Positions 8,574 through 22,898 of a stretch of 64,000 nt of DNA are shown here, in pieces. The notes under the pieces were generated by a model, which searched no databases, was not told the DNA's origin, and was given only the letters and a program-made list of their open reading frames with translations. The translations under genes were made by a program, and so were the position numbers. The first letter of the stretch is position 1. The number at the start of each line of letters is the position of its first letter. Source of the stretch: Actinomycetota bacterium (GTDB lineage Bacteria; Actinomycetota; Actinomycetes; S36-B12; CAIYMF01); the NCBI GenBank assembly GCA_020161245.1, contig JAIUOK010000020.1, positions 4,325 through 68,324 on the forward strand, in the 5' to 3' direction.

Positions 8574-11261
8574 TCAGGCCTCGGGGGAGGCGGCCTTCGC
8601 GGCGGCGGTCTTCTTCGCCGCCGTCCTCTTCGCCGCCGTCTTCTTCGCGGCGGCCTTCTTGGCCGGGGCCTTCTTGGCCGCCGCCTTCTTCTTCGGCGCA
8701 GGGTCCTTGGCGCGGCGCTCGGCGAGCAGGTCGGCCGCGCGCTCGACCGAGATCGTCGACGGGTCGTCGGCCCGGCGCAGCGACGCGTTGGTCTCACCGT
8801 CGGTCACGTACGGGCCGAAGCGGCCCTCCTTGAGCTGGATCTCCTTGTTCGTCGACGGGTCGATGCCGACGATGACGGCGGGCTTGGCCGCAGCCTGGCC
8901 GCGGCGCGTCTTCGGCTGCGCGAGCAGCGCGAGGGCGCCCGGGAGGTCGATGGTGAAGATCGATGCCTCGTCCGGCAGCGACCGGGAGTCCTTCTCCTTG
9001 GTGATGTACGGGCCGTAGCGCCCGTTCTGCGCCGTGATCTCCTTGCCGTCGGCGGGGTCGACGCCGACCACGCGGGGCAGCGAGAGCAGCTTGAGCGCGT
9101 CGTCGAGCGTGACGGTGTCGAGCGCCATGTCCGCGAACAGCGAGCCCGTGCGCGGCTTGGCCGACTTGGGCGCACCCTCCTCCAGCACCTCGGTGACGTA
9201 GGGGCCGTAGCGCCCGGTCTTGGCGACGATCGTGCGGCCGGTCGACGGGTCGATGCCGAGCTCGCGGTCGCCCGAGGGCAGGTCGAGCAGCTCCTGCGCC
9301 TTCTCGGCCGTGAGCTCGTCGGGCGCGATGTCGGTCGGCACGTTGGCGCGCTGCTCGCCCTTCTCGACGTACGGGCCGTAGCGGCCGACGCGCAGCACGA
9401 TGTCGGAGTCGGCGATCGGGAAGGACGAGATCTCGCGCGCGTCGATCTCGCCGAGGTCGCTGGCGAGCGCCTGCAGGCCGGCGTAGCCGTCGTAGCCCTT
9501 GTAGAAGCGGTCGAGCACCGCGATGCGGTCGCTCTCGCCGGTGGCCACGGAGTCGAGGCGCTCCTCGAGCCGCGCGGTGAAGTCGTACTCGACGAGCCGG
9601 GTGAAGTGCTCCTCCATGAGGCGCACGACGGCGAAGGCGAGGAACGAGGGCACCAGCGCCGACCCGCGCTTGGTGACGTACCCGCGGTCGACGATCGTGC
9701 CCATGATCGCGGCGTACGTCGACGGTCGGCCGATGCCGCGCTCCTCGAGCGCCTTCACCAGCGACGCCTCGGTGTAGCGCGGCGGCGGGTTGGTGGTGTG
9801 GCCCTCGGGGTCGAGGCGCACCGCGGTGACGGCGTCGCCGACCGACAGTGGCGGCAGCCGGCGCTCGGCGTCGGCGTCGTCGGTGTCGCGGCTCTCGTCG
9901 ACCGACTCCTCGTAGGCGGCGAGGAAGCCGCGGAAGGTGACGACCGTGCCGCTCGCGGAGAACTCGGCGTCGCGGCCGTCGGACGCCGTCGCGCCGAGGC
10001 GGATCGTGGCGGTCTGGCCGCGGGCGTCGGCCATCTGCGACGCGACCGTGCGCTTCCAGATGAGGTCGTAGAGCAGGAAGTCGTCGCCGCGCAGCTCGCC
10101 CGCGACCTCGGCGGGCGTGCGGAACACGTCGCCGGCGGGGCGCACGGCCTCGTGGGCCTCCTGCGCGTTCTTCACCTTGCGGTCGTAGCGGCGCGGCACC
10201 TCGGCGACGTGGTCGGAGCCGTAGAGCTCGGCAGCCTGCGCGCGGGCGGCGTTCAGCGCCGACTCCGACAGCGTGGTGGAGTCGGTACGCATATAGGTGA
10301 TGTAGCCGCGCTCGTAGAGGCCCTGCGCCACGCGCATCGTGCGCTGCGCTCCCCAGCGCAGCTTGCGGCTGGCCTCCTGCTGCAGCGTGGAGGTCATGAA
10401 CGGCGCGGCGGGCGAGCGCTTGTAGGGCTTGTCCTCGACCGACCGCACGCTGAACGATGCGCCCTGCAGCGCCGCCGCCAGCGACGTCGCCGCCTCCTCC
10501 GACAGGTGCGCGGCGTCGGCGCGGGTGAGCACCGCACGGTCGTCGAAGTCCTTGCCGCTGGCCACGCGGGCGCCGTCGACGGCGACGAGCTTGGCGCTGA
10601 ACGAGCCCGGGTCGAACAGGCCCTCGATGTCCCAGTACGACGCCGAGCGGAACGCGATCCGCTCGCGCTCGCGGTCGACCACCAGGCGGGTAGCCACCGA
10701 CTGCACACGGCCCGCGGAGAGGCCGGTCATGACCTTCTTCCAGAGGACCGGGCTGACCTCGTAGCCGTAGAGGCGGTCGATGATGCGGCGGGTCTCCTGC
10801 GCGTCGACCAGCGCGGTGTCGAGCTCGCGGGTCTCCTGCGCGGCGCGCTGGATCGCGTCGCGGGTGATCTCGTGGAAAACCATCCGGCGAACCGGCACCT
10901 TGGGCTTGAGCACCTCGAGCAGGTGCCACGCGATGGCCTCGCCCTCGCGGTCCTCATCCGTGGCGAGCAGGAGCTCGTCGGCGTCGGCGAGCTTCTTCTT
11001 CAGCTCGGCGACCTTGGTGCGCTTGTCGGCATCGACGACGTAGAGCGCCTGGTAGCCGTTGTCGACGTCGACGCCGAGCCGCGACCACGGCTCCTTCTTC
11101 AGCTTCTCGGGGATCTCCGACGCCCGGGTGGGCAGGTCGCGGATGTGCCCCACGGAGGCCTCGACCTCGTACCCCGGGCCGAGGTAGCCCTGGATGGTCT
11201 TGGCCTTGGCCGGCGACTCGACGATGACGAGCCGACGACCCTCCTTCGCCTTGGGGGGCAC
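8574..11261 (-). CDS. topA: DNA topoisomerase I (type IA) with actinobacterial C-terminal repeats and Lys/Ala-rich tail
   Basis: IVESPAKAKTI, ATDEDREGE, SAGRVQS, ITYMRTDS catalytic Tyr, GRYGPYV repeats, AAKK tail. Confidence 0.97.
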   Translation of the reverse strand: MPPKAKEGRRLVIVESPAKAKTIQGYLGPGYEVEASVGHIRDLPTRASEIPEKLKKEPWSRLGVDVDNGYQALYVVDADKRTKVAELKKKLADADELLLATDEDREGEAIAWHLLEVLKPKVPVRRMVFHEITRDAIQRAAQETRELDTALVDAQETRRIIDRLYGYEVSPVLWKKVMTGLSAGRVQSVATRLVVDRERERIAFRSASYWDIEGLFDPGSFSAKLVAVDGARVASGKDFDDRAVLTRADAAHLSEEAATSLAAALQGASFSVRSVEDKPYKRSPAAPFMTSTLQQEASRKLRWGAQRTMRVAQGLYERGYITYMRTDSTTLSESALNAARAQAAELYGSDHVAEVPRRYDRKVKNAQEAHEAVRPAGDVFRTPAEVAGELRGDDFLLYDLIWKRTVASQMADARGQTATIRLGATASDGRDAEFSASGTVVTFRGFLAAYEESVDESRDTDDADAERRLPPLSVGDAVTAVRLDPEGHTTNPPPRYTEASLVKALEERGIGRPSTYAAIMGTIVDRGYVTKRGSALVPSFLAFAVVRLMEEHFTRLVEYDFTARLEERLDSVATGESDRIAVLDRFYKGYDGYAGLQALASDLGEIDAREISSFPIADSDIVLRVGRYGPYVEKGEQRANVPTDIAPDELTAEKAQELLDLPSGDRELGIDPSTGRTIVAKTGRYGPYVTEVLEEGAPKSAKPRTGSLFADMALDTVTLDDALKLLSLPRVVGVDPADGKEITAQNGRYGPYITKEKDSRSLPDEASIFTIDLPGALALLAQPKTRRGQAAAKPAVIVGIDPSTNKEIQLKEGRFGPYVTDGETNASLRRADDPSTISVERAADLLAERRAKDPAPKKKAAAKKAPAKKAAAKKTAAKRTAAKKTAAAKAASPEA

Positions 11262-11520: not shown

Positions 11521-11629
11521 CGGGTGAAGTCCCCTACTGGCCGCCGCGTCGTTCCTCCGCGCCGACCAGCGGGGGCCCATCCCCCGCTTGCGATAGAAGC
11601 AAGGAAAGCGCCCCAGGCTGTCCACAGGC
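11521..11629 (+). repeat. 109-bp repeat, left copy (inverted partner at 15491-15599)
   Basis: Hand alignment with the reverse complement of 15491-15599 gives 106/109 identity. Confidence 0.95.
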
Positions 11630-11716
11630 AGGGGCCAGGCACCCGATCCGCCCACAGGGCGGGGCCGTCGTGGACGAGCTCCGACGACGTCCGTGCAGGA
11701 TCCTGCCCCGCCGGCG

Positions 11717-12121
11717 TCAGGGGCGGGCGGAGAGCTGCATCGACTCCGCGAGCAGGTCGTAGGCCTGGGCCCAGGCGTCGCGGGTGGCGGCGTCCCACGC
11801 CGGGTCGTGGGCGGCGAGCGCATCGACCAGCACCGGCCCGAGGGCGGCGTACTGCGACGCCGTGACGCGGTGCGCCACGTGCACGCGGGCCAGCCGCTCA
11901 CTGGTCTCGGCGAAGGCCGGGAAGTCCGGGATCGCCGCCACGATCGCCGCGACGCTGTCGCCGAACTTCTTCTCCTGGGCCTCCATCTGGGCGGGGAAGG
12001 CGTCGCGCAGATCGGGGTAGAGGGCGAACAGGCGCGAGTAGAACGTGTGGGCGACGTCCGGCAGCACCGGTGCGAGCCGCTGCGCGCTCGCCGTCACCAA
12101 GTCGATCTCGTGCGGGTTCAT
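11717..12121 (-). CDS. Single-domain globin (flavohemoglobin-like globin domain, no reductase)
   Basis: FY (B10 Tyr), LF..YP..R..F (CD1 Phe), Q (E7), L..VH (F8 His), AW..AY; AGGAGG SD. Confidence 0.85.
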   Translation of the reverse strand: MNPHEIDLVTASAQRLAPVLPDVAHTFYSRLFALYPDLRDAFPAQMEAQEKKFGDSVAAIVAAIPDFPAFAETSERLARVHVAHRVTASQYAALGPVLVDALAAHDPAWDAATRDAWAQAYDLLAESMQLSARP

Positions 12122-12239: not shown

Positions 12240-14954
12240 TCATCGGCCGCGCCCCGATCGCGCGGCCGGCACGGAGCCGGAGCCGCCCTCGGACAGCCCG
12301 AGCGCGGCGGCGAGCTGCGCGCGGCCAGCGATCCCGAGCTTGGCGTAGACGTTGGCGAGGTGGTTGTCGACCGTGCGCACCGACAGCACCAGGTCGGCCG
12401 CCACCTCCTTGCTGCTGCGGCCGCGAGCAGCGAGCGACGCGATCTCGCGCTCGCGCGGGGTCAGCAGCGCCGCGCCTGCGGCCGAGCCGAGTCCCTCGAC
12501 CTGCATGCCAGGCGACTGGTCGGCCCAGGCTCGCGCTCTCGCCTCGGCCGCGGCGGCCGCACGCGGGTCTCCCTCGGCACGCAGCACTTGCGCCGCCTGC
12601 GCCGCGAGAGTGGCCGCGGAGTGGACGAACGCGCACGCGGCGAAGCCCTCAGCCGCCGCGAGGAGGTCGGCTGCGGACCCCGACAGCAGTGCCTGCGAGC
12701 GGAGCCGACGTGCGTTCCCGAGCGGCGTCGGAACGTGCGCGACGACGTCGGGCAGCTCCGCCGCGGCCTCGGCGTCGCCCCACATCACCGCCTCGTCGAG
12801 CAGCATCGCCGCCTCGCGGTACTCGCCGCGCGCGGCCAGCTCGCGGCCGTGCTCGACGACGAGCGAGGCAGCCGTGCGCAGATCGCCGTCGACGCTGGCG
12901 ACCCAGGCCCGCGACACCGTCTCCATCGGGGCGAAGGCCGGCGCGGGCGCTGGCAGAGCAGCGGCCCTGCCGAGCCACTCGTGGGCGGCCGCGGCATCGC
13001 CGAGCAGCGAGGTGCTCTCGGCCATGCCCAGGACCGCGAGCCGCTCGACCTGCCCGAAGCCGTGCCGGCCCGCCGTCGCCGCCAGCTCGCGGAACGCCGA
13101 CGACGCGTCCTCGGCGAAGCCGCCGAGCAGGTCGATCTCCGCGACGACCCAGGCGAGCCAGGCGGCCTGGAACAGCACGCCCTGGGCGATCGCGACGTCG
13201 CGCCCCTGGGCCGCGAGAGACCGCGCCTCGCCGGGCCGGCCGAGCTCGAGGCTCGCGAGCGCGGCGACCATGAGGTCGCCGGACGGGTGCAGCAGGCCGG
13301 CCGGCTGGTCCTCGTCGGTGCCCTCCTGCCATGCGGCCAGCGCCACCCTCACGGCGGTCTCGGCGTCGCCTGTCCGGTGCGCGGCCCAGGCGTGCGCCCG
13401 GTGGTGCACAGCCCGCATCGCCGGATCGGCCGGCGCCTCGGCCGGCAGCACGGCGAGCGCCTCGGCGCTGCGGCCGCCCTGGGTCAGCAGCAGCGCCCGC
13501 ATCGAGTCGAGGACGGCCCGGCCCTGCACCACGACGTCGTCAGGCTCCCCCGAGGCGGCGATCGCCTCCGACGCGGCGGCGAGCCCCGCCAGGGCGACGT
13601 CAGGGCGCCCGAGGCCGAAGAAGCGGACGATGCCGTGCGCCAGCGCGATCCGCACGGACGCCGGCGACGCGACGTCGTCGCCGGCAGCGGCCGCGCCCTC
13701 CGACAGCACCGCGTCGGCCTCGTCGAACAGGCCCTGCTCGTAGAGCGCCTCGCCGAGCAGCGCGCTGGCGCGGGCGTCGGGCTCGAGCAGCAGGGCGGCG
13801 CGGGCGAGCCGCTCGACCTGCGGGTAGTCGTGCGACGCGCGCGCGAGCTCGGCGCCGGTCACCAGAGTCTCGGCGTCGGCGGTCCCGGTGGCGTCGAGGC
13901 GCCAGGCGGCCACGCGCAGCACGTCGTCGCGCCGGCGCGCGCCGTGGGCTTCGGTGCGGGCCACCTGGTCGAGCAGCAGCCGGCGCGACTTCAGCCGCGG
14001 CAGGCTGCTGGTGAGCACCTGCGCGTAGACCGGGTGCGCGAGCTGCACCTGCTGACGGCGGCGGTCGACGACCACCCTGATCACGCCCGCGGCCTCGAGC
14101 TGCTCGAGGACGTCCAGCGGCGTGTGCTCGGCCAGCTCGTCGGCGCCGAGCGGCTGGCACAGCGCGAGCAGCTCGACCAGGGTGCGCGCTTGGGCGTCGA
14201 GGACGCCGATCCGCTCGGCCACGAGGCTCTCGAGCCCGCCCGTCACGTCGAGCGCGCCCGAGAGCACCCAGACGCCGTCGGTCTCGTCGAGGCGCCCGGC
14301 GAGCACGGCGCCCGTGACGAGCTCGCGCAGGTAGAGCGGGTTGCCGCGGCTGGCGGTCCACAGGGCATGCTCGGCCTCGGCCGCCACCGGCCCACGGAGA
14401 ACCCGGTGCAGCAACGTGCCCACGGACTGCCGGGGCAGGTCGCCGATCTCGAGTCGCAGCACCCCGCCACGGCGATGCTCGGCCACGAGCACGCCTGGTG
14501 TCGGCGTCCCCGTGCGCTGGGTCGCGATGATCACCGCGAGCCCTTCGCGCCACAGCCTTGACAGCAGGTCGCACGACACGGCGTCGAGCGCGTCGACGTC
14601 GTCGACATGGATCACGACGCGCGCGCCGTCGCCGAGATCGCGGACGTGCTCGACGACGGCGTCGAGCACGACTGACGGGTCGGGACCGGACGGGCCGGCG
14701 CCGTCGGGCAGCAGGGGCGAGAGCGCGGAGAGGGGGACGGCGGCGGCGCTGTCGGTGGCCGCGACCGACACCGTGGGGTAGCCGTCGAGCTCGGCGCTGC
14801 GCAGGCACTCCTGCGCCAGACGGGTCTTGCCGGTCCCGGCGTCGCCCGCGAGGTGCACGACGGCGACGGCGGGGTCGGCCAGCGCCGCCACCACACGCTC
14901 GAGGTCGCTGCCCCGTCCCACCAACGGCCAGTCGAGGCTGGTCGTCGTCCCCAT
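12240..14954 (-). CDS. Large ATP-binding LuxR-family (LAL/MalT-like) regulator
   Basis: WPLVGR start, Walker A GDAGTGKT, VDDVD Walker B, GNPLYL, long helical region, C-terminal LTPRE..I..LAA.G...KE.A..L..S.RTV..H...VY.KLG HTH; start re-called at 14954. Confidence 0.92.
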   Translation of the reverse strand: MGTTTSLDWPLVGRGSDLERVVAALADPAVAVVHLAGDAGTGKTRLAQECLRSAELDGYPTVSVAATDSAAAVPLSALSPLLPDGAGPSGPDPSVVLDAVVEHVRDLGDGARVVIHVDDVDALDAVSCDLLSRLWREGLAVIIATQRTGTPTPGVLVAEHRRGGVLRLEIGDLPRQSVGTLLHRVLRGPVAAEAEHALWTASRGNPLYLRELVTGAVLAGRLDETDGVWVLSGALDVTGGLESLVAERIGVLDAQARTLVELLALCQPLGADELAEHTPLDVLEQLEAAGVIRVVVDRRRQQVQLAHPVYAQVLTSSLPRLKSRRLLLDQVARTEAHGARRRDDVLRVAAWRLDATGTADAETLVTGAELARASHDYPQVERLARAALLLEPDARASALLGEALYEQGLFDEADAVLSEGAAAAGDDVASPASVRIALAHGIVRFFGLGRPDVALAGLAAASEAIAASGEPDDVVVQGRAVLDSMRALLLTQGGRSAEALAVLPAEAPADPAMRAVHHRAHAWAAHRTGDAETAVRVALAAWQEGTDEDQPAGLLHPSGDLMVAALASLELGRPGEARSLAAQGRDVAIAQGVLFQAAWLAWVVAEIDLLGGFAEDASSAFRELAATAGRHGFGQVERLAVLGMAESTSLLGDAAAAHEWLGRAAALPAPAPAFAPMETVSRAWVASVDGDLRTAASLVVEHGRELAARGEYREAAMLLDEAVMWGDAEAAAELPDVVAHVPTPLGNARRLRSQALLSGSAADLLAAAEGFAACAFVHSAATLAAQAAQVLRAEGDPRAAAAAEARARAWADQSPGMQVEGLGSAAGAALLTPREREIASLAARGRSSKEVAADLVLSVRTVDNHLANVYAKLGIAGRAQLAAALGLSEGGSGSVPAARSGRGR

Positions 14955-15165
14955 CCGGCCCCCTCGGTCGGCGGTGTCGGCTCGCGCGTCGTACGGGTCG
15001 ATGCCGCGCTGGCCGGCGTCGTCTCGGGCCCCGCCCCCGTGCGGGCTCGCGCGCCACAGGCTAGGGCCGCGGGGCGCGCGGAGTGGCCGAGTCCGGCGCG
15101 CGTCGCACGACCGGGTCCGGCGTCGGGCTGCGGTGCTGGGCATGGCCGGTGCCAGGTGCGCGGCG

Positions 15166-15318
15166 TCAGCGCCAGGTGAGGGGGCGGGCGACGGCGTAGC
15201 GGCGGGTGAGGGGCAGCGCGGAGGAGCTGCGGCGGCGGGCGTGGCGCGCCTTGACGGCGGCGACGACGGCGATGCGGCGGGGGTCGGTGGCGACCGGCGG
15301 GACGGTGTGCGTGCTCAT
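15166..15318 (-). CDS. 50-aa Arg-rich small protein (MSTHTVPPVATDPRRIAVVAAVKARHARRRSSSALPLTRRYAVARPLTWR)
   Basis: All 50 sense codons end in G/C; CACTGT -10-like element 7 nt before ATG; not called separately in the ORF track. Confidence 0.6.
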   Translation of the reverse strand: MSTHTVPPVATDPRRIAVVAAVKARHARRRSSSALPLTRRYAVARPLTWR

Positions 15319-15353
15319 GACGGGAACAGTGCCGCGGGCCCCTGGGTAGGTAC

Positions 15354-15372
15354 CTGAGTAGTGATTGCTCAG
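15354..15372. promoter_or_regulatory. Candidate operator palindrome CTGAGTA-N5-TGCTCAG
   Basis: Imperfect 7-5-7 palindrome, AT-rich for this genome, centred about 45 nt upstream of the small ORF ATG. Confidence 0.45.
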
Positions 15373-15490
15373 ATCGCATCGCCGCAGGTCAGAGCGGGTG
15401 CGGGGGGGCGGGCGGGCATGGTGCCGCTCCGCCGCCGGGGACGTGCCCGCCCGAGCCGCCGCCTGTGGACGGGGATGCGGACGGCAGGGG

Positions 15491-15599
15491 GCCTGTGGAC
15501 AGCCTGGGGCGCCTTTCTTGCTTCTATCGCAAGCAGGGGATGGGCCCCCGCTGGTCGGCGCGGAGGAACGACGCGGCGGCCAGTAGGGGACTTCACCCG
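15491..15599 (-). repeat. 109-bp repeat, right copy (inverted)
   Basis: 106/109 identical to 11521-11629 on the opposite strand. Confidence 0.95.
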
Positions 15600-15614
15600 G
15601 AAAGCACCAGGGGG

Positions 15615-17114
15615 TCAGAGGTGGAGGAGGGCTTCTTCGATGAGGCCGCGGACGGCGATGAGGGCTCCGGGGAGGACGTCGTCGGGGTCGAGGTCGTGGA
15701 CGGTGGCGGCGCCGTCGATCGCGTCGGAGACCGTCGTCGCGCCATCGAAGCTGCGGACGAGGTGGGCGCCCACGGAGTCGAGCAGGACGTCGGGGCGCCA
15801 GCCGTCGACGAGCGCGAGGCGCGGCGGCACTGCCGAGAGGCGGCCGGCGGCGTCGGCGACGTCCACCTCCGACAGCCGCAGGCCCTCCGCCCGACGGGGA
15901 CGCGAGCCGAGCAGCGCGAAGGCGTCGACGTCGGCCCAGGCGGCACGCGCGGCGACCAGCTGCGCCACCTCGTCGCCGTCGGGCAGGCGCGGCGCGTGCG
16001 CCACGTCCTCGATGCGCGGGCCCTGCGCGCCGTAGGTGCCGCCCTTGTGCAGCACCACCCAGCCGAAGCCCACCCCCTCGGCATCCATCGCGTCGAACGC
16101 GTCGAGCCACTCGGCGTAGCGGCGGTCGAGCTCGTCGCGGTCGTCGGAGCCGCCGGCGTCGCGCAGCCAGAGCCCCACGTACTCGGCGGGGTCCTGCACC
16201 TCGCGCTGGGCGACCCACGCATCGCACCCCGTCGGGGCGCACCAGGAGGCCACCCGCTCGCGCCAGTCCTCGCCTCGGCGGTGCAGCCAGTTGGCGAGCA
16301 CCACGGCGGTGCCGCCGTCGGCCAGGTGCGACGGCGCCTGCTGGAGCAGCAGCCGGCCGAGGTCGTCGGCGGGCAGGCCGGCGTCGCGGTAGGTGTAGCG
16401 GTGGCCGGGCGAGATGACGAACGGCGGGTTGCTCACGACGAGGTCGAACTGCTCGCCGCCGACCGGCTCGAACAGCGAGCCCTCGCGCAGGTCCCACTCC
16501 TGGCCCGACAGCGCCGCGCTGACAGCGGCGAGCCGCAGCGCGCGCCGGTTGCGGTCGGTGGCGACGACGCTGCGCGCGTGCCGGCCGAGGTGCAGGGCCT
16601 GCACGCCGCAGCCGGTGCCGAGGTCGAGCGCGCGGCCCACCGGCGTGCGCGGCGTGATGCGGGCGAGGGTGAGGCTCGCGCCGCCGACGCCGAGCACGTG
16701 GTCGACGGCCACCTCCCCGCCGCCCCAGCCCGCGGAGTCGTGCCCGGCGGAGTCCGGGCCGTGGTCGCTGACGACGTACCAGTCGGTGTCGGGCTCGCCG
16801 TAGGGGCGGACGTCGACCACCGCCCGCAGCTCGGACGCGCCGCCGACGAGACCCGCGGCGAGCAGGTCGTCGAGCGGCAGCTCGCGCTCGGCGTCCTCGC
16901 GGGCGACCGGCTCGCCGAGGACGAACAGCCGGGCCAGGGCGGCGTCGGTGCCGCTGCGGCCCTCGAGAGCGCGCCGGGCGGGCACCGGCTCGCCGCGCGA
17001 GAGGGCGGCGTACGCCGACGGGCCGAGCAGGGCGAGCAGGCCGTCGGCGGTGTAGCCGGCGTCGAGCAGGACGGGACGCAGCCGTCGGGCGGCGGCGAGG
17101 TCGGGATCGCTCAC
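15615..17114 (-). CDS. Class I SAM-dependent methyltransferase (conserved actinobacterial topA-neighbour type)
   Basis: DHVLGVGGAS, ALDLGTGCGVQ, VVSNPPFVI; start GTG 17114 within the long supplied ORF. Confidence 0.85.
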   Translation of the reverse strand: MSDPDLAAARRLRPVLLDAGYTADGLLALLGPSAYAALSRGEPVPARRALEGRSGTDAALARLFVLGEPVAREDAERELPLDDLLAAGLVGGASELRAVVDVRPYGEPDTDWYVVSDHGPDSAGHDSAGWGGGEVAVDHVLGVGGASLTLARITPRTPVGRALDLGTGCGVQALHLGRHARSVVATDRNRRALRLAAVSAALSGQEWDLREGSLFEPVGGEQFDLVVSNPPFVISPGHRYTYRDAGLPADDLGRLLLQQAPSHLADGGTAVVLANWLHRRGEDWRERVASWCAPTGCDAWVAQREVQDPAEYVGLWLRDAGGSDDRDELDRRYAEWLDAFDAMDAEGVGFGWVVLHKGGTYGAQGPRIEDVAHAPRLPDGDEVAQLVAARAAWADVDAFALLGSRPRRAEGLRLSEVDVADAAGRLSAVPPRLALVDGWRPDVLLDSVGAHLVRSFDGATTVSDAIDGAATVHDLDPDDVLPGALIAVRGLIEEALLHL

Positions 17115-17202
17115 GTCCCGATCCTCCCGCACGGGCGACGCCGACTCAGCCCGGCGGACCAACACCCGCGGCTGCCGGTCTCGGCGGCCGGAGCAGCGCC
17201 CT

Positions 17203-17251
17203 GCACGGCGCGAGGCCCCGGGCGGATCGCCCGGGGCCTCGCGTGCCGTGC
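17203..17251 (-). terminator. Hairpin downstream of hppA
   Basis: 15-bp stem GCGAGGCCCCGGGCG / CGCCCGGGGCCTCGC plus 7-bp outer stem. Confidence 0.65.
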
Positions 17252-17284
17252 TGGATGGTGCTGGGTGGTGCTGGTGCCTGACGA

Positions 17285-19639
17285 TCAGGCCGCGGCCGGA
17301 GCCTCGGTCGGCTCCTCCTCGCCCACGGTGATCGCGCGGCGCTTGGACACGATGACCGCGCCGACCACCACGAGCACCGCGACGATCGCGATGCCCCAGC
17401 GGGCGAGGTCGGCGCCGGAGAGGAACAGGCCGACGACGGCGGGGGCGATCAGCAGCGCCACCAGGTTCATCACCTTGATGAGCGGGTTGATCGCGGGGCC
17501 CGCGGTGTCCTTGAACGGGTCGCCGACCGTGTCGCCGATGACCGTCGCGGAGTGCGCCTCGGAGCCCTTGCCGCCGAAGTGGCCGTCCTCGACGAACTTC
17601 TTCGCGTTGTCCCAGGCGCCGCCCGAGTTCGAGAGGAAGACCGCCATGAGGACGCCGGTCGCGATCGTGCCGGCGAGGTACGAGCCGAGCGCGCCGATGC
17701 CGAGGCCGAAGCCGACGGCGATCGGTGTGAGCACGGCCAGCAGGCCCGGGGTGGCGAGCTCGCGCAGCGAGTCGCGCGTGACGATGTCGACGACCTTCGC
17801 GTACTCGGGCTTCTCGGTGCCCTCCATGATCCCGGGGTGCTCGCGGAACTGGCGGCGCACCTCGAAGATCACCGCGCCGGCAGCGCGGGAGACCGCGTTG
17901 ATGGCGAGGCCGGAGAACAGGAACACGACCGAGGCACCGATGATCAGGCCCACGAGGTTGCTCGGGTTGCTGATGTCGAGGATCGCCCGGTACTGGTTCT
18001 GGTCGATCGGAGCCGGCACGTTCTCCGGCAGGATCCCGTTGTTGATCGCGTTCGTCGTCGCCTGCACCACGGTGTCGCGGAACGACCCGAACAGCGCGGT
18101 GGCGGCGAGGACGGCGGTCGCGATCGCGATGCCCTTGGTGATCGCCTTGGTGGTGTTGCCGACGGCGTCGAGCGAGGTGAGCACCTGGGCGCCCTCGCCG
18201 TGCACGTCGCCGGACATCTCGGCGATGCCCTGCGCGTTGTCCGACACCGGGCCGAAGGTGTCCATCGAGACGATGACGCCGACGGTGGTGAGCAGGCCGC
18301 AGCCGGCGAGCGCGATCGCGAACAGCGACAGCACGATCGAGCCGCCGCCGAGCAGGAACGCGCCGTACACGGCGGCACCGATGAGCAGCGCCGAGTAGAC
18401 GGCCGACTCGAGACCCACCGAGATGCCCGCGAGGATGACCGTCGCGGGGCCGGTGAGCGAGCTCTTCGACACGTCGTCGACGGGCTTGCGGTTGGTCTCG
18501 GTGAAGTAGCCGGTCAGCTGCTGGATCGCAGCCGCGAGCACGATGCCGATGATGACGGCGCCGAGCGCGAGCAGACGCGGGTTGAACGTGTCGACGTCCA
18601 CGAGGCCGAGGTTGTCGACGACGACGCCGCGCAGCAGCGTGATCCGGTCCGGCAGGTAGACGAAGGTCACGATCGCGACGAGCACGATCGAGATCGCCGC
18701 GGAGATGAAGAAGCCGCGGTTGATGGCGCTCATGCCCGAGCGGTCGCCGGGGCGCGGGGCCACCGCGAAGATGCCGATGACGGCGGTGATGACGCCGATC
18801 GCCGGGATGATCAGCGGGAACACGAGGCCGGCGTCGCCGAAGGCCGCCTTGCCGAGGATCAGCGCAGCGACGAGCGTGACGGCGTAGGACTCGAAGAGGT
18901 CGGCCGCCATGCCGGCGCAGTCGCCGACGTTGTCGCCCACGTTGTCGGCGATGGTCGCCGCGTTGCGCGGGTCGTCCTCGGGGATGCCCTGCTCGACCTT
19001 GCCGACGAGGTCGGCGCCGACGTCGGCCGCCTTGGTGAAGATGCCGCCGCCGACTCGCATGAACATCGCGAGCAGCGCGGCGCCGAAGCCGAAGCCCTCG
19101 AGCACCGTGGGGGCGTCGCCCTTGTAGACCAGCACGACGACGGCCGCGCCGAACAGGCCGAGGCCGACGGTGAACATGCCCGCGACGCCGCCGGTGCGGA
19201 AGGCGATGCGCATCGCCTGCTGCTCGCCGGACTCGTTGGCGGCGGCCGCGACGCGGACGTTGCCGCGGACGGCGAGCCACATGCCGACGTAGCCGGTGAT
19301 GGCGGAGAACACCGCGCCGACGAGGAAGAAGATCGAGCGACCGATCCTCTCCGACTGCGTGTCGGCGGGCAGGAAGAACAGCAGGACGAAGACCAGCGCC
19401 GCGAAGATCGACAGGGTGCGGAACTGGCGGCTCAGGTACGCCGCTGCACCCTCTTGGACCGCGGCTGCGATCTCCTTCATGCGGTCGGTGCCCTCGCTGG
19501 CAGCGAGGACCTCCCGGACCAGAACCCACGCGACTCCGAGGGCGAGCAGCGCGATGACCGCGACCACTGCGACGAAGGCGTAGTTCGAGCCCGAGACATC
19601 CACGCTGACCGTTGCGGCAGCGAGCGTCGTCGGGGACAT
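17285..19639 (-). CDS. hppA: Membrane-integral ion-translocating pyrophosphatase (predicted K+-independent H+-PPase)
   Basis: GGIFTKAADVGADLVGKVE, IPEDDPRN, DNVGDNVGD, GNTTKAITK, GDTVGDPFKDTAGP; start re-called at ATG 19639 after GAGGAG. Confidence 0.95.
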   Translation of the reverse strand: MSPTTLAAATVSVDVSGSNYAFVAVVAVIALLALGVAWVLVREVLAASEGTDRMKEIAAAVQEGAAAYLSRQFRTLSIFAALVFVLLFFLPADTQSERIGRSIFFLVGAVFSAITGYVGMWLAVRGNVRVAAAANESGEQQAMRIAFRTGGVAGMFTVGLGLFGAAVVVLVYKGDAPTVLEGFGFGAALLAMFMRVGGGIFTKAADVGADLVGKVEQGIPEDDPRNAATIADNVGDNVGDCAGMAADLFESYAVTLVAALILGKAAFGDAGLVFPLIIPAIGVITAVIGIFAVAPRPGDRSGMSAINRGFFISAAISIVLVAIVTFVYLPDRITLLRGVVVDNLGLVDVDTFNPRLLALGAVIIGIVLAAAIQQLTGYFTETNRKPVDDVSKSSLTGPATVILAGISVGLESAVYSALLIGAAVYGAFLLGGGSIVLSLFAIALAGCGLLTTVGVIVSMDTFGPVSDNAQGIAEMSGDVHGEGAQVLTSLDAVGNTTKAITKGIAIATAVLAATALFGSFRDTVVQATTNAINNGILPENVPAPIDQNQYRAILDISNPSNLVGLIIGASVVFLFSGLAINAVSRAAGAVIFEVRRQFREHPGIMEGTEKPEYAKVVDIVTRDSLRELATPGLLAVLTPIAVGFGLGIGALGSYLAGTIATGVLMAVFLSNSGGAWDNAKKFVEDGHFGGKGSEAHSATVIGDTVGDPFKDTAGPAINPLIKVMNLVALLIAPAVVGLFLSGADLARWGIAIVAVLVVVGAVIVSKRRAITVGEEEPTEAPAAA

Positions 19640-19804
19640 GCACGTGCTCCTCAGGCGGAAGTGGGGGTCGCCACCCTCGCCGGAGGAGCGGCTTCGACCC
19701 TCGAACGCGCCGGAGTCTACGCAGGGGTGTGACCTGGGCCACCCGCGCGGGGGTGCGGCATGGGTCACACCTCGGCCGCCCGCGCCGGCCGGCGGCGCCG
19801 GGCG

Positions 19805-20182: not shown

Positions 20183-20517
20183 CCGGCGACCGCGGACTCG
20201 ACGGTCGGGTGCAGCGGGATGAGGGTGTCCAGGCCGGTCAGGCGGAAGACCTTGGCCACGCGGTCGGCGGTGACGACGACAGCCAGCGACCCGCCGTCGT
20301 GCTCCCGGACGCGCTTGAGCGTCTTCACCAGCACGGCCAGGCCCGTGGAGTCGAGGAAGTCGACGCGCGAGAGGTCCACCACCACGCGGTGCTGCCCCCC
20401 GCCGGTCACGGCCGACAGCTCGGAGTCGAGCTGCGGGGCCGTGAAGATGTCGATCTCGCCCGCGGCGGAGACCACCGCGATGCCGTCCTGGTCGTGCGTG
20501 CTCACGTCGAGGTCCAC
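20179..20517 (-). CDS. bldG: Anti-sigma factor antagonist (STAS), BldG-like
   Basis: GEIDIFTAP, VDLS.VDFLDSTGL phospho-Ser motif; divergent from the DUF1998 helicase as at the Streptomyces bldG locus. Confidence 0.8.
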   Translation of the reverse strand: MDLDVSTHDQDGIAVVSAAGEIDIFTAPQLDSELSAVTGGGQHRVVVDLSRVDFLDSTGLAVLVKTLKRVREHDGGSLAVVVTADRVAKVFRLTGLDTLIPLHPTVESAVAG

Positions 20518-20573
20518 CTCTGCACTCTGACACAGGTGCGCGGGCGTCGGGGCGGTCGGGGAGGATCGGTTTC

Positions 20574-22898
20574 GTGCCCGTCCCCACACCCGACCAGCTG
20601 CTCGGCCGGCTCACGGCCGGACGGCCCGACCGCCTGCTGCACGTGCAGCACGTGCCGGCGCGGACGGGCACCGCGGTGGGGTGGCCGGGGTGGGTGCCCG
20701 ACGAGCTGCGCGACGCCCTCACCCGCCGCGGTGTCACGAACCCCTGGGCCCACCAGGCCGACGCCGCCGAGCACGCGCGGGCCGGGCGCCACGTCGTCGT
20801 CGCGACGGGGACGGCGTCGGGCAAATCGCTGGCGTACCTGCTGCCCTCGATCACCGCCGTGCTCGAAGGCACGCGCGCTCCCAACGGCCGCGGCGCCACG
20901 GCCCTGTACCTGTCCCCCACGAAGGCGCTCGCGCACGACCAGTGGCGCTCGATCCAGGAGCTCGGGCTCGACGGCCTGCGGGCCGCCGCCTACGACGGCG
21001 ACACCGCCGACGAGGAGCGCGCCTGGATCCGCCAGCACGCCGGCTACGTGCTGTCCAACCCCGACCTGCTGCACCGCTCGATGCTCCCTGGGCACGAGCG
21101 GTGGGCGTCCTTCCTGCGCGCGCTGCAGTTCGTGATCGTCGACGAGTGCCACGTGTACCGCGGCCTGTTCGGCTCGCACGTCGCCAACGTCCTTCGCCGG
21201 CTCCAGCGGGTGTGCGAGCGGTACGGGTCCTCGCCCACGTTCGTCCTCGCCTCCGCCACGGCCGGCGACCCCGCGGGCTCGGCGTCGCGGCTCGTCGGGC
21301 TCGACGTCGTCGCCGTCGCCGACGACGCGTCGCCGCGGGGCGCCACGCACTTCGCGCTGTGGGAGCCGCCGCTGCAGGAGCACGGGGGCGAGAACGACGC
21401 GCCCACTCGCCGCACCGCGACCGCCGAGACGGCGTCGCTCATGACCGACCTCGTCGTGGAGGGCGTGCGCACGCTGGCCTTCATCCGGTCGCGGCGCGGG
21501 GCGGAGGCCGTGGCCATGACCGCGCGCGACTCGCTGCTGGAGGTGGAGCCCGACCTCGCCCACCGGGTGGCGGCCTACCGCGCCGGCTACCTGCCCGAGG
21601 AGCGTCGCGAGCTCGAGGACCAGCTGCGCGACGGCCGGCTGCTCGGCGTCGCGGCCACCAGCGCCCTCGAGCTCGGCGTCGACGTGACCGGCCTCGACGC
21701 CGTGCTCCTGTGCGGCTGGCCCGGCACCCGCGCCTCGCTGTGGCAGCAGGCCGGGCGCGCGGGGCGGTCCGGCCGCGACGCCCTCGCCGTCCTCGTGGCG
21801 CGCGACGACCCGCTCGACACCTATCTCGTGCACCACCCGGCCTCGCTGTTCGGCTCGCCCGTCGAGGCGACGGTGTGCGACCCGACCAACCCCTACGTGC
21901 TCGGTCCGCACCTGTGCGCTGCCGCCGCCGAGCTGCCGCTGACCGACGACGACCTGCCTCGCTTCGGCCCGACGGCCCCCGACGTGGTCGAGGCCCTCGT
22001 CGTCCGCGGCCTGCTGCGCAAGCGGCCCGGCGGCTGGTTCTGGACCCGCCAGGAGCGGGCCAGCGACCTCGCCGACCTGCGCGGCATCGGCGGCGGCATG
22101 GTGCGCGTCGTCGAGGACGAGACCGGCCGGCTGCTCGGCACCGTCGACCCCGGCGCAGCGCACTCGACCGTGCACGACGGCGCGGTCTACGTGCACCAGG
22201 GCCAGACCTACGTCGTCGACCGCCTCGACCTCGACGACGCCGTGGCCGTCGCCCATCGCGAGGCCGTCGACTACACGACGTCGGCGCGCGACACCACCGA
22301 CATCCGCGTCGTCGGCGAGATCGAGCGCACGTCGTGGGGCGACGCCGAGCTCGTCCACGGGCACGTCGAGGTGACCAACCAGGTCGTCGCCTATCTCAAG
22401 CGGCGCTACCTCACCGGCACGGTCCTCGGCGAGGAGCCGCTCTCCCTGCCCCCGCGCCAGCTGCGCACGCAGGCCGTGTGGTGGACCGTCACGCCCGAGC
22501 AGCTGCAGGCCGCGCAGCTGCTCGACGTCGACGTGCCGGGCGCGGCCCATGCCGCCGAGCACGCCTCGATCGGTCTGCTGCCCCTGGTGGCGACCTGCGA
22601 CCGCTGGGACATCGGCGGGGTGTCGACGGCGATGCACCCCGACACCGGCCGCATGACGGTGTTCGTCTACGACGGCCACCCCGGCGGTGCCGGGTTCGCA
22701 GCCCGGGGGTACGCCGCCGCGCGCACGTGGCTCGCCGCCACGCGCGAGGCGATCGCCTCGTGCGAGTGCGCCGACGGCTGCCCCTCGTGCGTGCAGAGCC
22801 CCAAGTGCGGCAACGGCAACGACCCGCTCGACAAGGCCGGCGCCGTGCGCCTGCTCGACGTCCTGCTCGCGGGCGCCCCGGGCGGCCCCGCGGCGTAG
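20574..22898 (+). CDS. DEAD/DEAH helicase with C-terminal Zn-binding DUF1998 domain (Rv3649/SftH-like)
   Basis: TGTASGKS, DECH, SAT, ALELGVD, QQAGRAGR, C-terminal CxC..GCPSC...PKC. Confidence 0.92.
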   Translation: MPVPTPDQLLGRLTAGRPDRLLHVQHVPARTGTAVGWPGWVPDELRDALTRRGVTNPWAHQADAAEHARAGRHVVVATGTASGKSLAYLLPSITAVLEGTRAPNGRGATALYLSPTKALAHDQWRSIQELGLDGLRAAAYDGDTADEERAWIRQHAGYVLSNPDLLHRSMLPGHERWASFLRALQFVIVDECHVYRGLFGSHVANVLRRLQRVCERYGSSPTFVLASATAGDPAGSASRLVGLDVVAVADDASPRGATHFALWEPPLQEHGGENDAPTRRTATAETASLMTDLVVEGVRTLAFIRSRRGAEAVAMTARDSLLEVEPDLAHRVAAYRAGYLPEERRELEDQLRDGRLLGVAATSALELGVDVTGLDAVLLCGWPGTRASLWQQAGRAGRSGRDALAVLVARDDPLDTYLVHHPASLFGSPVEATVCDPTNPYVLGPHLCAAAAELPLTDDDLPRFGPTAPDVVEALVVRGLLRKRPGGWFWTRQERASDLADLRGIGGGMVRVVEDETGRLLGTVDPGAAHSTVHDGAVYVHQGQTYVVDRLDLDDAVAVAHREAVDYTTSARDTTDIRVVGEIERTSWGDAELVHGHVEVTNQVVAYLKRRYLTGTVLGEEPLSLPPRQLRTQAVWWTVTPEQLQAAQLLDVDVPGAAHAAEHASIGLLPLVATCDRWDIGGVSTAMHPDTGRMTVFVYDGHPGGAGFAARGYAAARTWLAATREAIASCECADGCPSCVQSPKCGNGNDPLDKAGAVRLLDVLLAGAPGGPAA

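What the first reader, a model, noticed from the sequence alone, without database searches (positions are those of the whole stretch)
15166..15372. Unannotated 50-aa peptide with an operator-like palindrome at about -45, upstream of the LAL regulator
All 50 codons end in G/C, which supports real coding. The peptide is Arg-rich with an internal PLTRR/PLTWR echo. A CACTGT -10-like box 7 nt before ATG suggests a leaderless mRNA. CTGAGTA-N5-TGCTCAG is centred about 45 nt upstream, where LuxR-type activators typically bind. Inference: the peptide is the regulator's target and possibly its feedback ligand or inhibitor.
Basis: partly seen in the sequence, partly recalled or inferred. Interest (0 to 1): 0.6.

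Follow-up and report, generated by a model that had tools for sequence, protein, structure and literature searches.

The report
Small gene under a LuxR-regulator operator
The 50-codon reading frame is a real small-protein gene, and the palindrome before it is one of four copies of an operator that always occurs together with the neighbouring large LuxR-type (LAL) regulator, so regulator, binding site and targets can now be tested directly.

Summary
ORF 15318->15166 (minus strand) has G/C at all 50 third positions, and only that frame has gene-like codon usage. It has relatives of 50-56 aa in exactly the three other Longivirga genomes that carry the 74%-identical LAL orthologue, always beside it.

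The palindrome (15354-15372) is conserved with the ORF. It is one of four genome copies of (GATC)TGAGTAG-N3-CTACTCA(GG). All four are intergenic, and each lies 22-23 nt before a -10-like hexamer. The other three precede two secreted paralogues and a 131-aa protein.

Operator, targets and LAL share one distribution: 5-6 of 28 genus genomes. In one of these genomes the LAL was deleted secondarily.

A LAL only 31-32% identical, in another actinobacterial family, is flanked by the same palindrome with the same spacing. There the hexamer sits 6-7 nt before the ATG of a different small ORF and of two secreted proteins. This matches CACTGT-7 nt-ATG here, so a leaderless, LAL-dependent promoter is the best reading.

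Not shown: transcription, translation, LAL binding, and what the peptide does. A feedback partner of the LAL, like AfsS for AfsR, is inference only. In this genome the cassette is inverted relative to its closest relatives, and the peptide's C-terminal half has diverged.

The parts
15166..15318 (-). Small ORF, 50 aa plus stop. It is a divergent member of a Longivirga-restricted family of small basic helical proteins.
   Evidence: GC3 is 50/50. Codon score is +0.49 bits/codon in this frame only. The family profile matches at E 5.4e-15. Relatives are aligned. AlphaFold2 predicts a helix at residues 13-33 and a low-confidence tail.
15326..15331 (-). -10-like hexamer CACTGT, 7 nt before the ATG. 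It predicts a leaderless transcript.
   Evidence: The hexamer lies 23 nt from the palindrome edge. This matches 16 of 19 related sites, where an nAnnnT hexamer lies at 22-23 nt. In the distant lineage the equivalent hexamer sits 6-7 nt before the start codons. The transcription start was not mapped.
15354..15375 (.). Operator. On the ORF strand it reads GATC-TGAGCAA-TCA-CTACTCA-G(G). The core 17-mer spans 15355-15371. The distal half-site has 2 mismatches to the consensus TGAGTAG.
   Evidence: It is conserved in the same orientation before every family member. It is one of 4 copies in the genome.
12240..14954 (-). LAL regulator, 904 aa: AAA_16 ATPase domain with GDAGTGKT, a weak TPR match, and a C-terminal GerE/LuxR HTH. 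It is the candidate binder of the operator.
   Evidence: Pfam matches and NCBIfam matches. The start at 14954 is fixed by the orthologues. Co-occurrence with the palindrome is shown.
14988..14993 (-). TACGAC, at the position where LAL orthologues carry a -10-like TACCCT, TACGCT or TACTGT. Here the final T is missing.
   Evidence: Read from the upstream sequences printed. This is inference only.
11717..12121 (-). Single-domain globin gene downstream of the LAL. It belongs to the conserved block sORF / LAL / globin upstream of topA.
   Evidence: NCBIfam matches a flavohaemoprotein globin domain. The gene follows the LAL in G021, G022, G018 and G010, and a truncated remnant survives in G007.
15491..15600 (+). 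Copy of a dispersed repeat (modules A and B) between the methyltransferase gene and the operator. An inverted copy, 97% identical, lies at 11521-11630.
   Evidence: The two copies are aligned. Module A has 41 copies on 22 contigs and module B has 10 copies.

Best explanation
The ORF is a genuine small-protein gene. Its promoter is one of four in this genome built the same way: a palindromic operator, consensus (GATC)TGAGTAG-N3-CTACTCA(GG), then 22-23 nt, then a -10-like hexamer, with no recognisable -35 element. This places the operator centre at about -42 to -45. That is the geometry of promoters that depend on an activator bound next to RNA polymerase.

The adjacent LAL has a LuxR-type HTH at its C-terminus and is the most likely protein to bind the operator. 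It would then drive four targets: the small gene, two paralogous secreted proteins, and a 131-aa protein.

Here the hexamer CACTGT sits 7 nt before the ATG and there is no Shine-Dalgarno sequence, so the mRNA is probably leaderless. The small gene and the LAL now point the same way, 211 nt apart, with no evident terminator between them. Transcription from the operator-controlled promoter could therefore read into the LAL-globin genes.

Shown: coding character, family membership, conservation of the operator and its geometry, and co-distribution with the LAL in two lineages.

Inferred: LAL binding, activation rather than repression, the leaderless start, and read-through into the LAL.

The role of the peptide is speculative. 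The most likely role is a feedback partner of the LAL, by analogy with AfsS, which binds AfsR.
For: Coding:
- GC3, codon score and in-frame length variation of the family (50-56 aa) support coding.
- The family profile finds the gene only in G000, G021, G022 and G018 among 28 genus genomes and about 150 order genomes. These are exactly the genomes with the 74%-identical LAL.

Operator:
- The same motif in the same orientation precedes every family member.
- Other copies lie before fn3, pspDiv and c77 at orthologous positions in up to 6 genomes.
- 16 of 19 sites have an nAnnnT hexamer at 22-23 nt.

LAL link:
- Copies at <=2 mismatches occur in all 5 LAL-bearing genomes and in G007. One further <=2-mismatch match, in LAL-lacking G002, looks like chance; the other 21 genus genomes have none.
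- G007 lost the LAL by a deletion that left a globin stub.
- The LAL is the only regulator gene next to any copy.
- LALs only 31-32% identical, in another family, carry the palindrome about 300 nt upstream and at their stop codon. The exact core occurs 3 times in each of the 3 LAL-bearing genomes there, and 0 times in the 11 that lack it.
- The HTH is the best-conserved block between the two LAL lineages, 31/58 identical.

Leaderless start:
- In the distant lineage the hexamer lies 6-7 nt before the ATG of a small ORF and of two signal-peptide proteins.

Precedents:
- A LAL that binds palindromes, including in its own promoter: PMC9628970.
- AfsR activates afsS, and AfsS binds AfsR: PMC10832544.
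Against: - There is no expression or binding data of any kind.
- LAL-bearing genomes form subclades, so co-occurrence may partly reflect shared descent of an island.
- G007 keeps one operator without the LAL.
- G010 keeps the LAL and two operators but has no small ORF. The peptide is therefore dispensable for the rest of the system.
- This genome's copy is the most degenerate operator, with 2 mismatches in the distal half.
- The peptide has lost the near-invariant GTIA motif. Against its relatives dN is 0.6-0.8, above dS at 0.23-0.45.
- Several hexamers lack the canonical A at position 2 (TTGACT, TGRAGT).
- The geometry also fits a repressor that occludes the -35 region.
- The two small-protein families are not demonstrably homologous (hhalign probability 1.7%).
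Confidence: 0.6

Rival explanations
1. The palindrome is bound by a regulator other than the LAL. HspR is one candidate, because the core TGAGT-N7-ACTCA is also the core of the HspR inverted repeat (HAIR). The LAL would then be only a neighbour.
For: The c77 copy reads CTTGAGT-N7-ACTCATG, close to HAIR as I recall it from the literature. The dnaK upstream region carries CTTGAGT-N7-ACGCAAC. G007 keeps a copy without the LAL. The site overlaps the -35 position, where repressors also act.
Against: None of the four targets is a chaperone or protease gene. The invariant inner AG/CT and the C before TGAGT differ from the dnaK site. HspR and dnaK are universal in the genus, whereas the copies occur only where the LAL is or was present, in two separate families, and cluster around the LAL gene.
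Confidence: 0.15
2. In this genome the small ORF is a decaying remnant. After the inversion it lost its 5'UTR, Shine-Dalgarno sequence and C-terminal helix, and no longer makes a functional protein.
For: dN exceeds dS against all relatives. The GTIA motif is lost and the tail is disordered. The operator half-site is degenerate. G010 lost the gene entirely. In 75-80% GC DNA a 50-codon open frame is not rare.
Against: All 50 third positions are still G/C and codon usage is gene-like despite the heavy amino-acid change. The N-terminal motif and basic helix are retained. A 96%-identical variant exists in another sample (P0015). The promoter spacing is kept at 23 nt. The co-directional leaderless layout matches the distant lineage.
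Confidence: 0.12
3. The small protein itself, with its arginine-rich helix, binds the palindrome and is the regulator of the set.
For: One source names a family member 'transcriptional regulator'. The protein is a strongly basic predicted helix.
Against: G010 and G007 keep operator copies without the gene. There is no HTH or other DNA-binding family match. The distant lineage has the same palindrome but an unrelated small protein.
Confidence: 0.06
4. The ORF is a leader peptide whose translation controls LAL expression by attenuation.
For: It lies upstream of and co-directional with the LAL in this genome and in the distant lineage.
Against: In the three closest relatives it is on the opposite strand from the LAL. 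The spacer is 211 nt and folds no better than shuffled sequence, z +1.9, with no terminator-like site. The protein sequence is conserved as a family.
Confidence: 0.04

Closest known systems
AfsR-AfsS of Streptomyces (PMC10832544)
   Same: A large STAND-type ATPase transcription factor lies next to a small gene without a DNA-binding domain. The regulator activates that small gene directly, and the small protein feeds back by binding the regulator.
   Different: AfsR has an N-terminal SARP DNA-binding domain, not a C-terminal LuxR HTH. AfsS has conserved internal repeats, whereas the repeat-like echo here is not conserved. There is no sequence similarity. Binding and interaction are untested here.
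LAL regulators such as SCO6993 (PMC9628970) and MalT
   Same: The domain order is AAA-type ATPase, helical repeats, then a GerE/LuxR HTH. SCO6993 binds short palindromes, including in its own promoter region.
   Different: Most studied LALs sit in antibiotic gene clusters. This one sits in the core chromosome between a methyltransferase gene and topA, with a globin gene. It has a defined 17-bp palindrome at four promoters. No consensus site could be derived for SCO6993.
Activator sites centred near -42 (lux-box type, class II promoters; from general knowledge)
   Same: A dyad-symmetric site abuts the -35 position, there is no -35 hexamer, and the spacing to the -10 is fixed.
   Different: The position relative to the transcription start is inferred from the sequence only. 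Several -10-like hexamers are non-canonical.
HspR-associated inverted repeat, HAIR (from memory; the dnaK site was seen)
   Same: The core is TGAGT-N7-ACTCA.
   Different: The flanks and inner bases differ, the targets are not heat-shock genes, and the distribution follows the LAL.

Membership tests
Longivirga small basic protein family (P0003-P0014; no Pfam or NCBIfam model) | Match to the family profile | tested here: met
   E 5.4e-15, 57.6 bits, over the full length. Identity to members is 33-44%.
Longivirga small basic protein family (P0003-P0014; no Pfam or NCBIfam model) | N-terminal motif MS[ST][HA]T[IV]PP | tested here: met
   The window protein begins MSTHTVPP.
Longivirga small basic protein family (P0003-P0014; no Pfam or NCBIfam model) | Near-invariant GTIA motif within one continuous long helix | tested here: not met
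   The motif is replaced by SALPLT. The predicted helix ends at residue 33 and the tail has pLDDT below 50.
Longivirga small basic protein family (P0003-P0014; no Pfam or NCBIfam model) | Located beside the orthologous LAL, with the operator upstream | tested here: met
   True in G000, G021, G022 and G018. The orientation relative to the LAL is reversed in G000.
LAL regulators (the neighbouring gene) | N-terminal ATPase with Walker A, plus a C-terminal LuxR/GerE HTH, in a protein of about 900 aa | tested here: met
   AAA_16 at E 1.3e-9, GerE at E 1.5e-14, 904 aa, GDAGTGKT present.
Leaderless gene | -10 element 6-8 nt before an ATG/GTG start, with no Shine-Dalgarno sequence | tested here: met
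   The sequence reads CACTGT-TCCCGTC-ATG with no purine-rich stretch.
Leaderless gene | Mapped transcription start at the start codon | not testable with these tools
AfsR/AfsS-like regulator and small-partner pair | The regulator binds the small gene's promoter, and the small protein binds the regulator | not testable with these tools
   No binding data were available and no complex model could be built.
AfsR/AfsS-like regulator and small-partner pair | Conserved internal repeats in the small protein | tested here: not met
   PLTRR/PLTWR occurs only in the G000-type sequences.
HspR operator (HAIR) | CTTGAGT-N7-ACTCAAG upstream of chaperone or protease genes | tested here: not met
   The core matches 9/10, but the flanks differ and the targets are not chaperones. 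The genuine dnaK site differs.
Leader peptide / attenuator | Fixed co-directional position before the regulated gene, with alternative hairpins | tested here: not met
   The ORF is on the opposite strand in three relatives. The spacer is not structured.

The most novel reading that the evidence does not exclude
The LAL and its operator-controlled small protein form a self-contained feedback switch. The LAL turns on a short, fast-evolving helical peptide, which then docks on the LAL sensor repeats and sets its activity. This layout is old enough to be shared by two actinobacterial families, although the peptide has been replaced or has diverged beyond recognition. That would make it a peptide-gated STAND transcription factor controlling a small set of secreted proteins.
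Probability: 0.22. Interest if true: 0.7.

Novelty: new variant of a known kind. Interest (0 to 1): 0.5.

Why it matters
For most LAL regulators the signal, the DNA site and the regulon are all unknown, especially outside antibiotic gene clusters.

This analysis supplies several testable pieces from sequence alone:
- a precise 17-bp operator;
- a fixed promoter geometry;
- a complete short target list: one small protein, two secreted paralogues and a 131-aa protein;
- a second, distant lineage with the same logic.

It also adds an unannotated small-protein family. It gives a natural pair of layouts for comparing how expression of the pair is wired: divergent and leadered in three species, tandem and apparently leaderless here.

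Tried and rejected
- **tblastn with the window peptide alone:** only chance hits in 40 relatives. The relatives appeared only after I looked upstream of the LAL orthologues.
- **Family and structure libraries:** Pfam, NCBIfam and the ESM Atlas gave nothing for either small-protein family. Rfam gave no match in the window.
- **Whole-library profile search:** only two real clusters, plus low-complexity Arg-rich false hits.
- **Weak profile hits in G019 and G001:** both lie inside other genes and were rejected.
- **+ strand ORF 15206-15349 sharing the GC3 phase:** rejected on codon usage.
- **dN/dS by Nei-Gojobori:** inflated in this GC3-saturated genome and unstable for 50 codons, so used only qualitatively.
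- **Inverted repeats as inversion break-points:** none found around the cassette. The 110-nt inverted repeat flanking the whole block is a dispersed repeat.
- **pspA as a target:** rejected. It has its own genus-wide promoter, and the palindrome belongs to the divergent secreted-protein gene, which is absent elsewhere.
- **HspR/HAIR:** examined and ranked as a rival.
- **Homology between the two small-protein families:** not supported.
- **Metagenome scan:** the first attempt failed because the divergent window peptide was used for confirmation. The second gave one extra locus.
- **Tools unavailable:** I therefore have no DNA for the 96%-identical variant P0015 and no read evidence.

Full report
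**Context**

The window is 74.7% GC and comes from a 4.29-Mb actinobacterial genome. A protein identical to one relative's small ORF is recorded as 'hypothetical protein [Longivirga aurantiaca]'. This places the genus in Sporichthyaceae.

The locus is core chromosome, not a biosynthetic cluster. The gene order is:
- MrfA-like helicase, 20445-22898, + strand;
- H+-pyrophosphatase, 17285-19768, - strand;
- DUF7059/MTS methyltransferase, about 15615-17300, - strand;
- the small ORF;
- the LAL, 12240-14954, - strand;
- a globin, 11717-12121, - strand;
- topA, 8574-11261, - strand.

The LAL begins at ATG 14954. Every orthologue aligns from that Met.

**Is the ORF coding?**

All 50 third positions are G/C, and the run of G/C at that phase (15169-15322) coincides with the ORF. 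A + strand ORF shares that phase, so I scored codon usage against genes of the window. The minus frame scores +0.49 bits/codon, against 0.44 for the LAL. The other five frames score negative. None of 315 open wrong-frame 50-codon windows reaches this value.

**Relatives**

A tblastn search with the peptide alone found nothing. The LAL, however, has 74%-identical orthologues in G021, G022 and G018, and a 53-58% one in the poorly assembled G010.

Upstream of the first three lies a 54-56-aa ORF with GC3 of 0.95-1.0. It begins MS[ST][HA]TIPP, continues with RRQ.V.RA.R.RRRRA..GTIA, and ends in W.

The protein database holds 13 such proteins, all 50-75 aa as called and 50-56 aa from the conserved Met. 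One of them is 96% identical to the window peptide.

A profile search of 1.84 billion representatives found only these two clusters. The same profile, run over 28 genus genomes and about 150 order genomes, hits only G000, G021, G022 and G018. Two weak hits lie inside other genes.

Length differences within the family are all in frame.

AlphaFold2 gives one long helix (residues 11-53, pLDDT 77) for a typical member. For the window peptide it gives a helix at 13-33 and then a low-confidence tail. The window peptide has lost the GTIA motif. Its dN against relatives is 0.6-0.8, with dS at 0.23-0.45 (LAL and topA calibration). It is therefore a fast-diverging member that still has gene-like composition.

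**The palindrome**

Oriented by the small ORF, all loci share GATCTG[GA]G[TC]A[GA]T..CTACTCAGG upstream, while the flanks do not align.

In G021, G022 and G018 the ORF is on the opposite strand from the LAL. It has a GGAGGA Shine-Dalgarno sequence and a 5'UTR hairpin. In the window the whole cassette, operator plus ORF, is inverted, and both the UTR and the Shine-Dalgarno sequence are missing.

**A regulon**

Searching the four genomes for the palindrome turned up further copies. In G000 these are C50:13485, C50:93861 and C77:88452. They sit before three genes:
- a 654-aa secreted fn3 protein;
- its 283-aa secreted paralogue ('pspDiv'), divergent from pspA;
- a 131-aa protein ('c77').

The same sites occur at the orthologous genes of the other genomes. 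pspA itself keeps a genus-wide promoter of its own. The palindrome and pspDiv are absent from five LAL-lacking genomes.

G000 has 4 copies at <=2 mismatches. Permuted-half-site palindromes give a mean of 0.67.

With the target gene placed to the right, 16 of 19 sites have an nAnnnT hexamer starting 22-23 nt after the palindrome. The three exceptions read TGRAGT. Many sites have GATC on the far side, GG on the near side, and a third half-site 21 nt upstream.

The window site fits this pattern: 23 nt, then CACTGT, then 7 nt, then ATG. In the LAL direction of the relatives there is no hexamer at that spacing. The LAL's own -10-like TACCCT, TACGCT or TACTGT lies about 49 nt from the palindrome. 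The corresponding window sequence is TACGAC.

**Who binds it?**

Four observations point to the LAL.
1. No other regulator gene lies next to any copy.
2. Copies at <=2 mismatches occur in G000, G021, G022, G018 and G010, all of which carry the LAL, and in G007. One further match, in LAL-lacking G002, looks like chance. The remaining 21 genus genomes have none. G007 has the methyltransferase gene next to topA, with only codons 66-133 of the globin left between them. Its LAL was therefore deleted secondarily. The targets c77 and pspDiv have the same narrow distribution.
3. An order-wide search found LALs only 31-32% identical in three MAGs of another family. Each has a perfect or near-perfect TGAGTAG-N3-CTACTCA about 300 nt upstream, another copy overlapping its stop codon, and a third 2-3.5 kb away.
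   - Every one of these copies is followed by 22 nt, a hexamer ending in T, and 6-7 nt before an ATG.
   - The three ATGs open a 66-67-aa small ORF co-directional with the LAL, a secreted 140-aa protein, and a secreted 525-aa protein.
   - In that genus the exact core occurs three times in each LAL-bearing genome and never in the 11 others.
4. The HTH is the best-conserved block between the two LAL lineages, 31/58 identical.

The two small-protein families are not demonstrably homologous.

LAL-bearing genomes may be subclades, so the counts are not independent. Even so, the same association in two families, with copies clustered on the LAL gene, is hard to explain unless the LAL uses the site.

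A published LAL binds short palindromes, including in its own promoter (PMC9628970).

**Rivals**

The HAIR core of HspR is TGAGT-N7-ACTCA. The true dnaK site here (CTTGAGT-N7-ACGCAAC) differs in its flanks and inner bases, and none of the targets is a chaperone gene.

A decaying remnant is possible for this genome's copy, but it fits poorly with the intact GC3 and the preserved spacing.

Attenuation is excluded by the opposite orientation in relatives and by an unstructured spacer.

**What the peptide does**

This is unknown. The system tolerates its loss in G010. It is the promoter-proximal target beside the LAL in both lineages. It has a conserved N-terminal motif and a basic helix.

The closest precedent is AfsS. 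AfsR activates afsS, and AfsS binds AfsR and raises its DNA affinity (PMC10832544). I rate a comparable partnership here at roughly one in four.

**Limits**

Noticed in passing
window 15491-15600 (+) and 11521-11630 (-): A 110-nt inverted repeat, 97% identical, brackets the sORF-LAL-globin block. It is a modular dispersed repeat. Module A is about 50 nt, runs GCCTGTGGAC...CTTGCTTCTATCGCAAG, and has 41 copies on 22 contigs, sometimes in opposed pairs. Module B is about 60 nt and has 10 copies.
   Followed up: partly
window 11717-12121 (-): A single-domain globin gene follows the LAL in every LAL-bearing genome. In G021 its start overlaps the LAL stop. G007 keeps only codons 66-133, which marks a deletion that removed the sORF, the LAL and the globin 5' end.
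   Followed up: partly
L033 3150-3260 (G000 C50) and orthologues: pspA has a genus-wide promoter-like element, GGACAG-N17/18-GATAGGTT, and is followed by an M48 (HtpX-like) peptidase gene. The palindrome next to it serves the divergent secreted-protein gene, which is an insertion specific to the LAL-bearing subclade.
   Followed up: partly
L014/L015/L016 and L058, 5'UTR of the small ORF: The relatives carry a conserved hairpin, GGGGCACG-AAGAACGGA-CGTGCCCC, directly before the Shine-Dalgarno sequence of the small ORF. In the metagenome copy the 3' arm differs, leaving 5 bp. Its function is unknown, and it is absent from the window.
   Followed up: no
L065 6465-6481 (G109) and L067 3995-4011 (G176): In the distant lineage the stop codon TGA of the LAL is the first three bases of an operator copy that serves the next gene, a secreted 140-aa protein.
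   Followed up: partly
L031 2585-2974 (G000 C77:87984-88373): The 131-aa target protein (MGLFQQMKDLKG...) matches no family. It occurs only in LAL-bearing genomes. Its N-terminus resembles the amphipathic start of PspA.
   Followed up: no
L060 about 1950-1990 (G000 C94:57833-57853): A HAIR-like site, CTTGAGT-N7-ACGCAAC, lies next to a TTGACA-type promoter about 230 nt before dnaK.
   Followed up: no
window 14955-15143 (-): The longest-ORF start of the LAL (ATG 15143) adds 63 Arg/Pro-rich residues that no orthologue has. The real start is 14954, preceded by GAGGGGG.
   Followed up: yes
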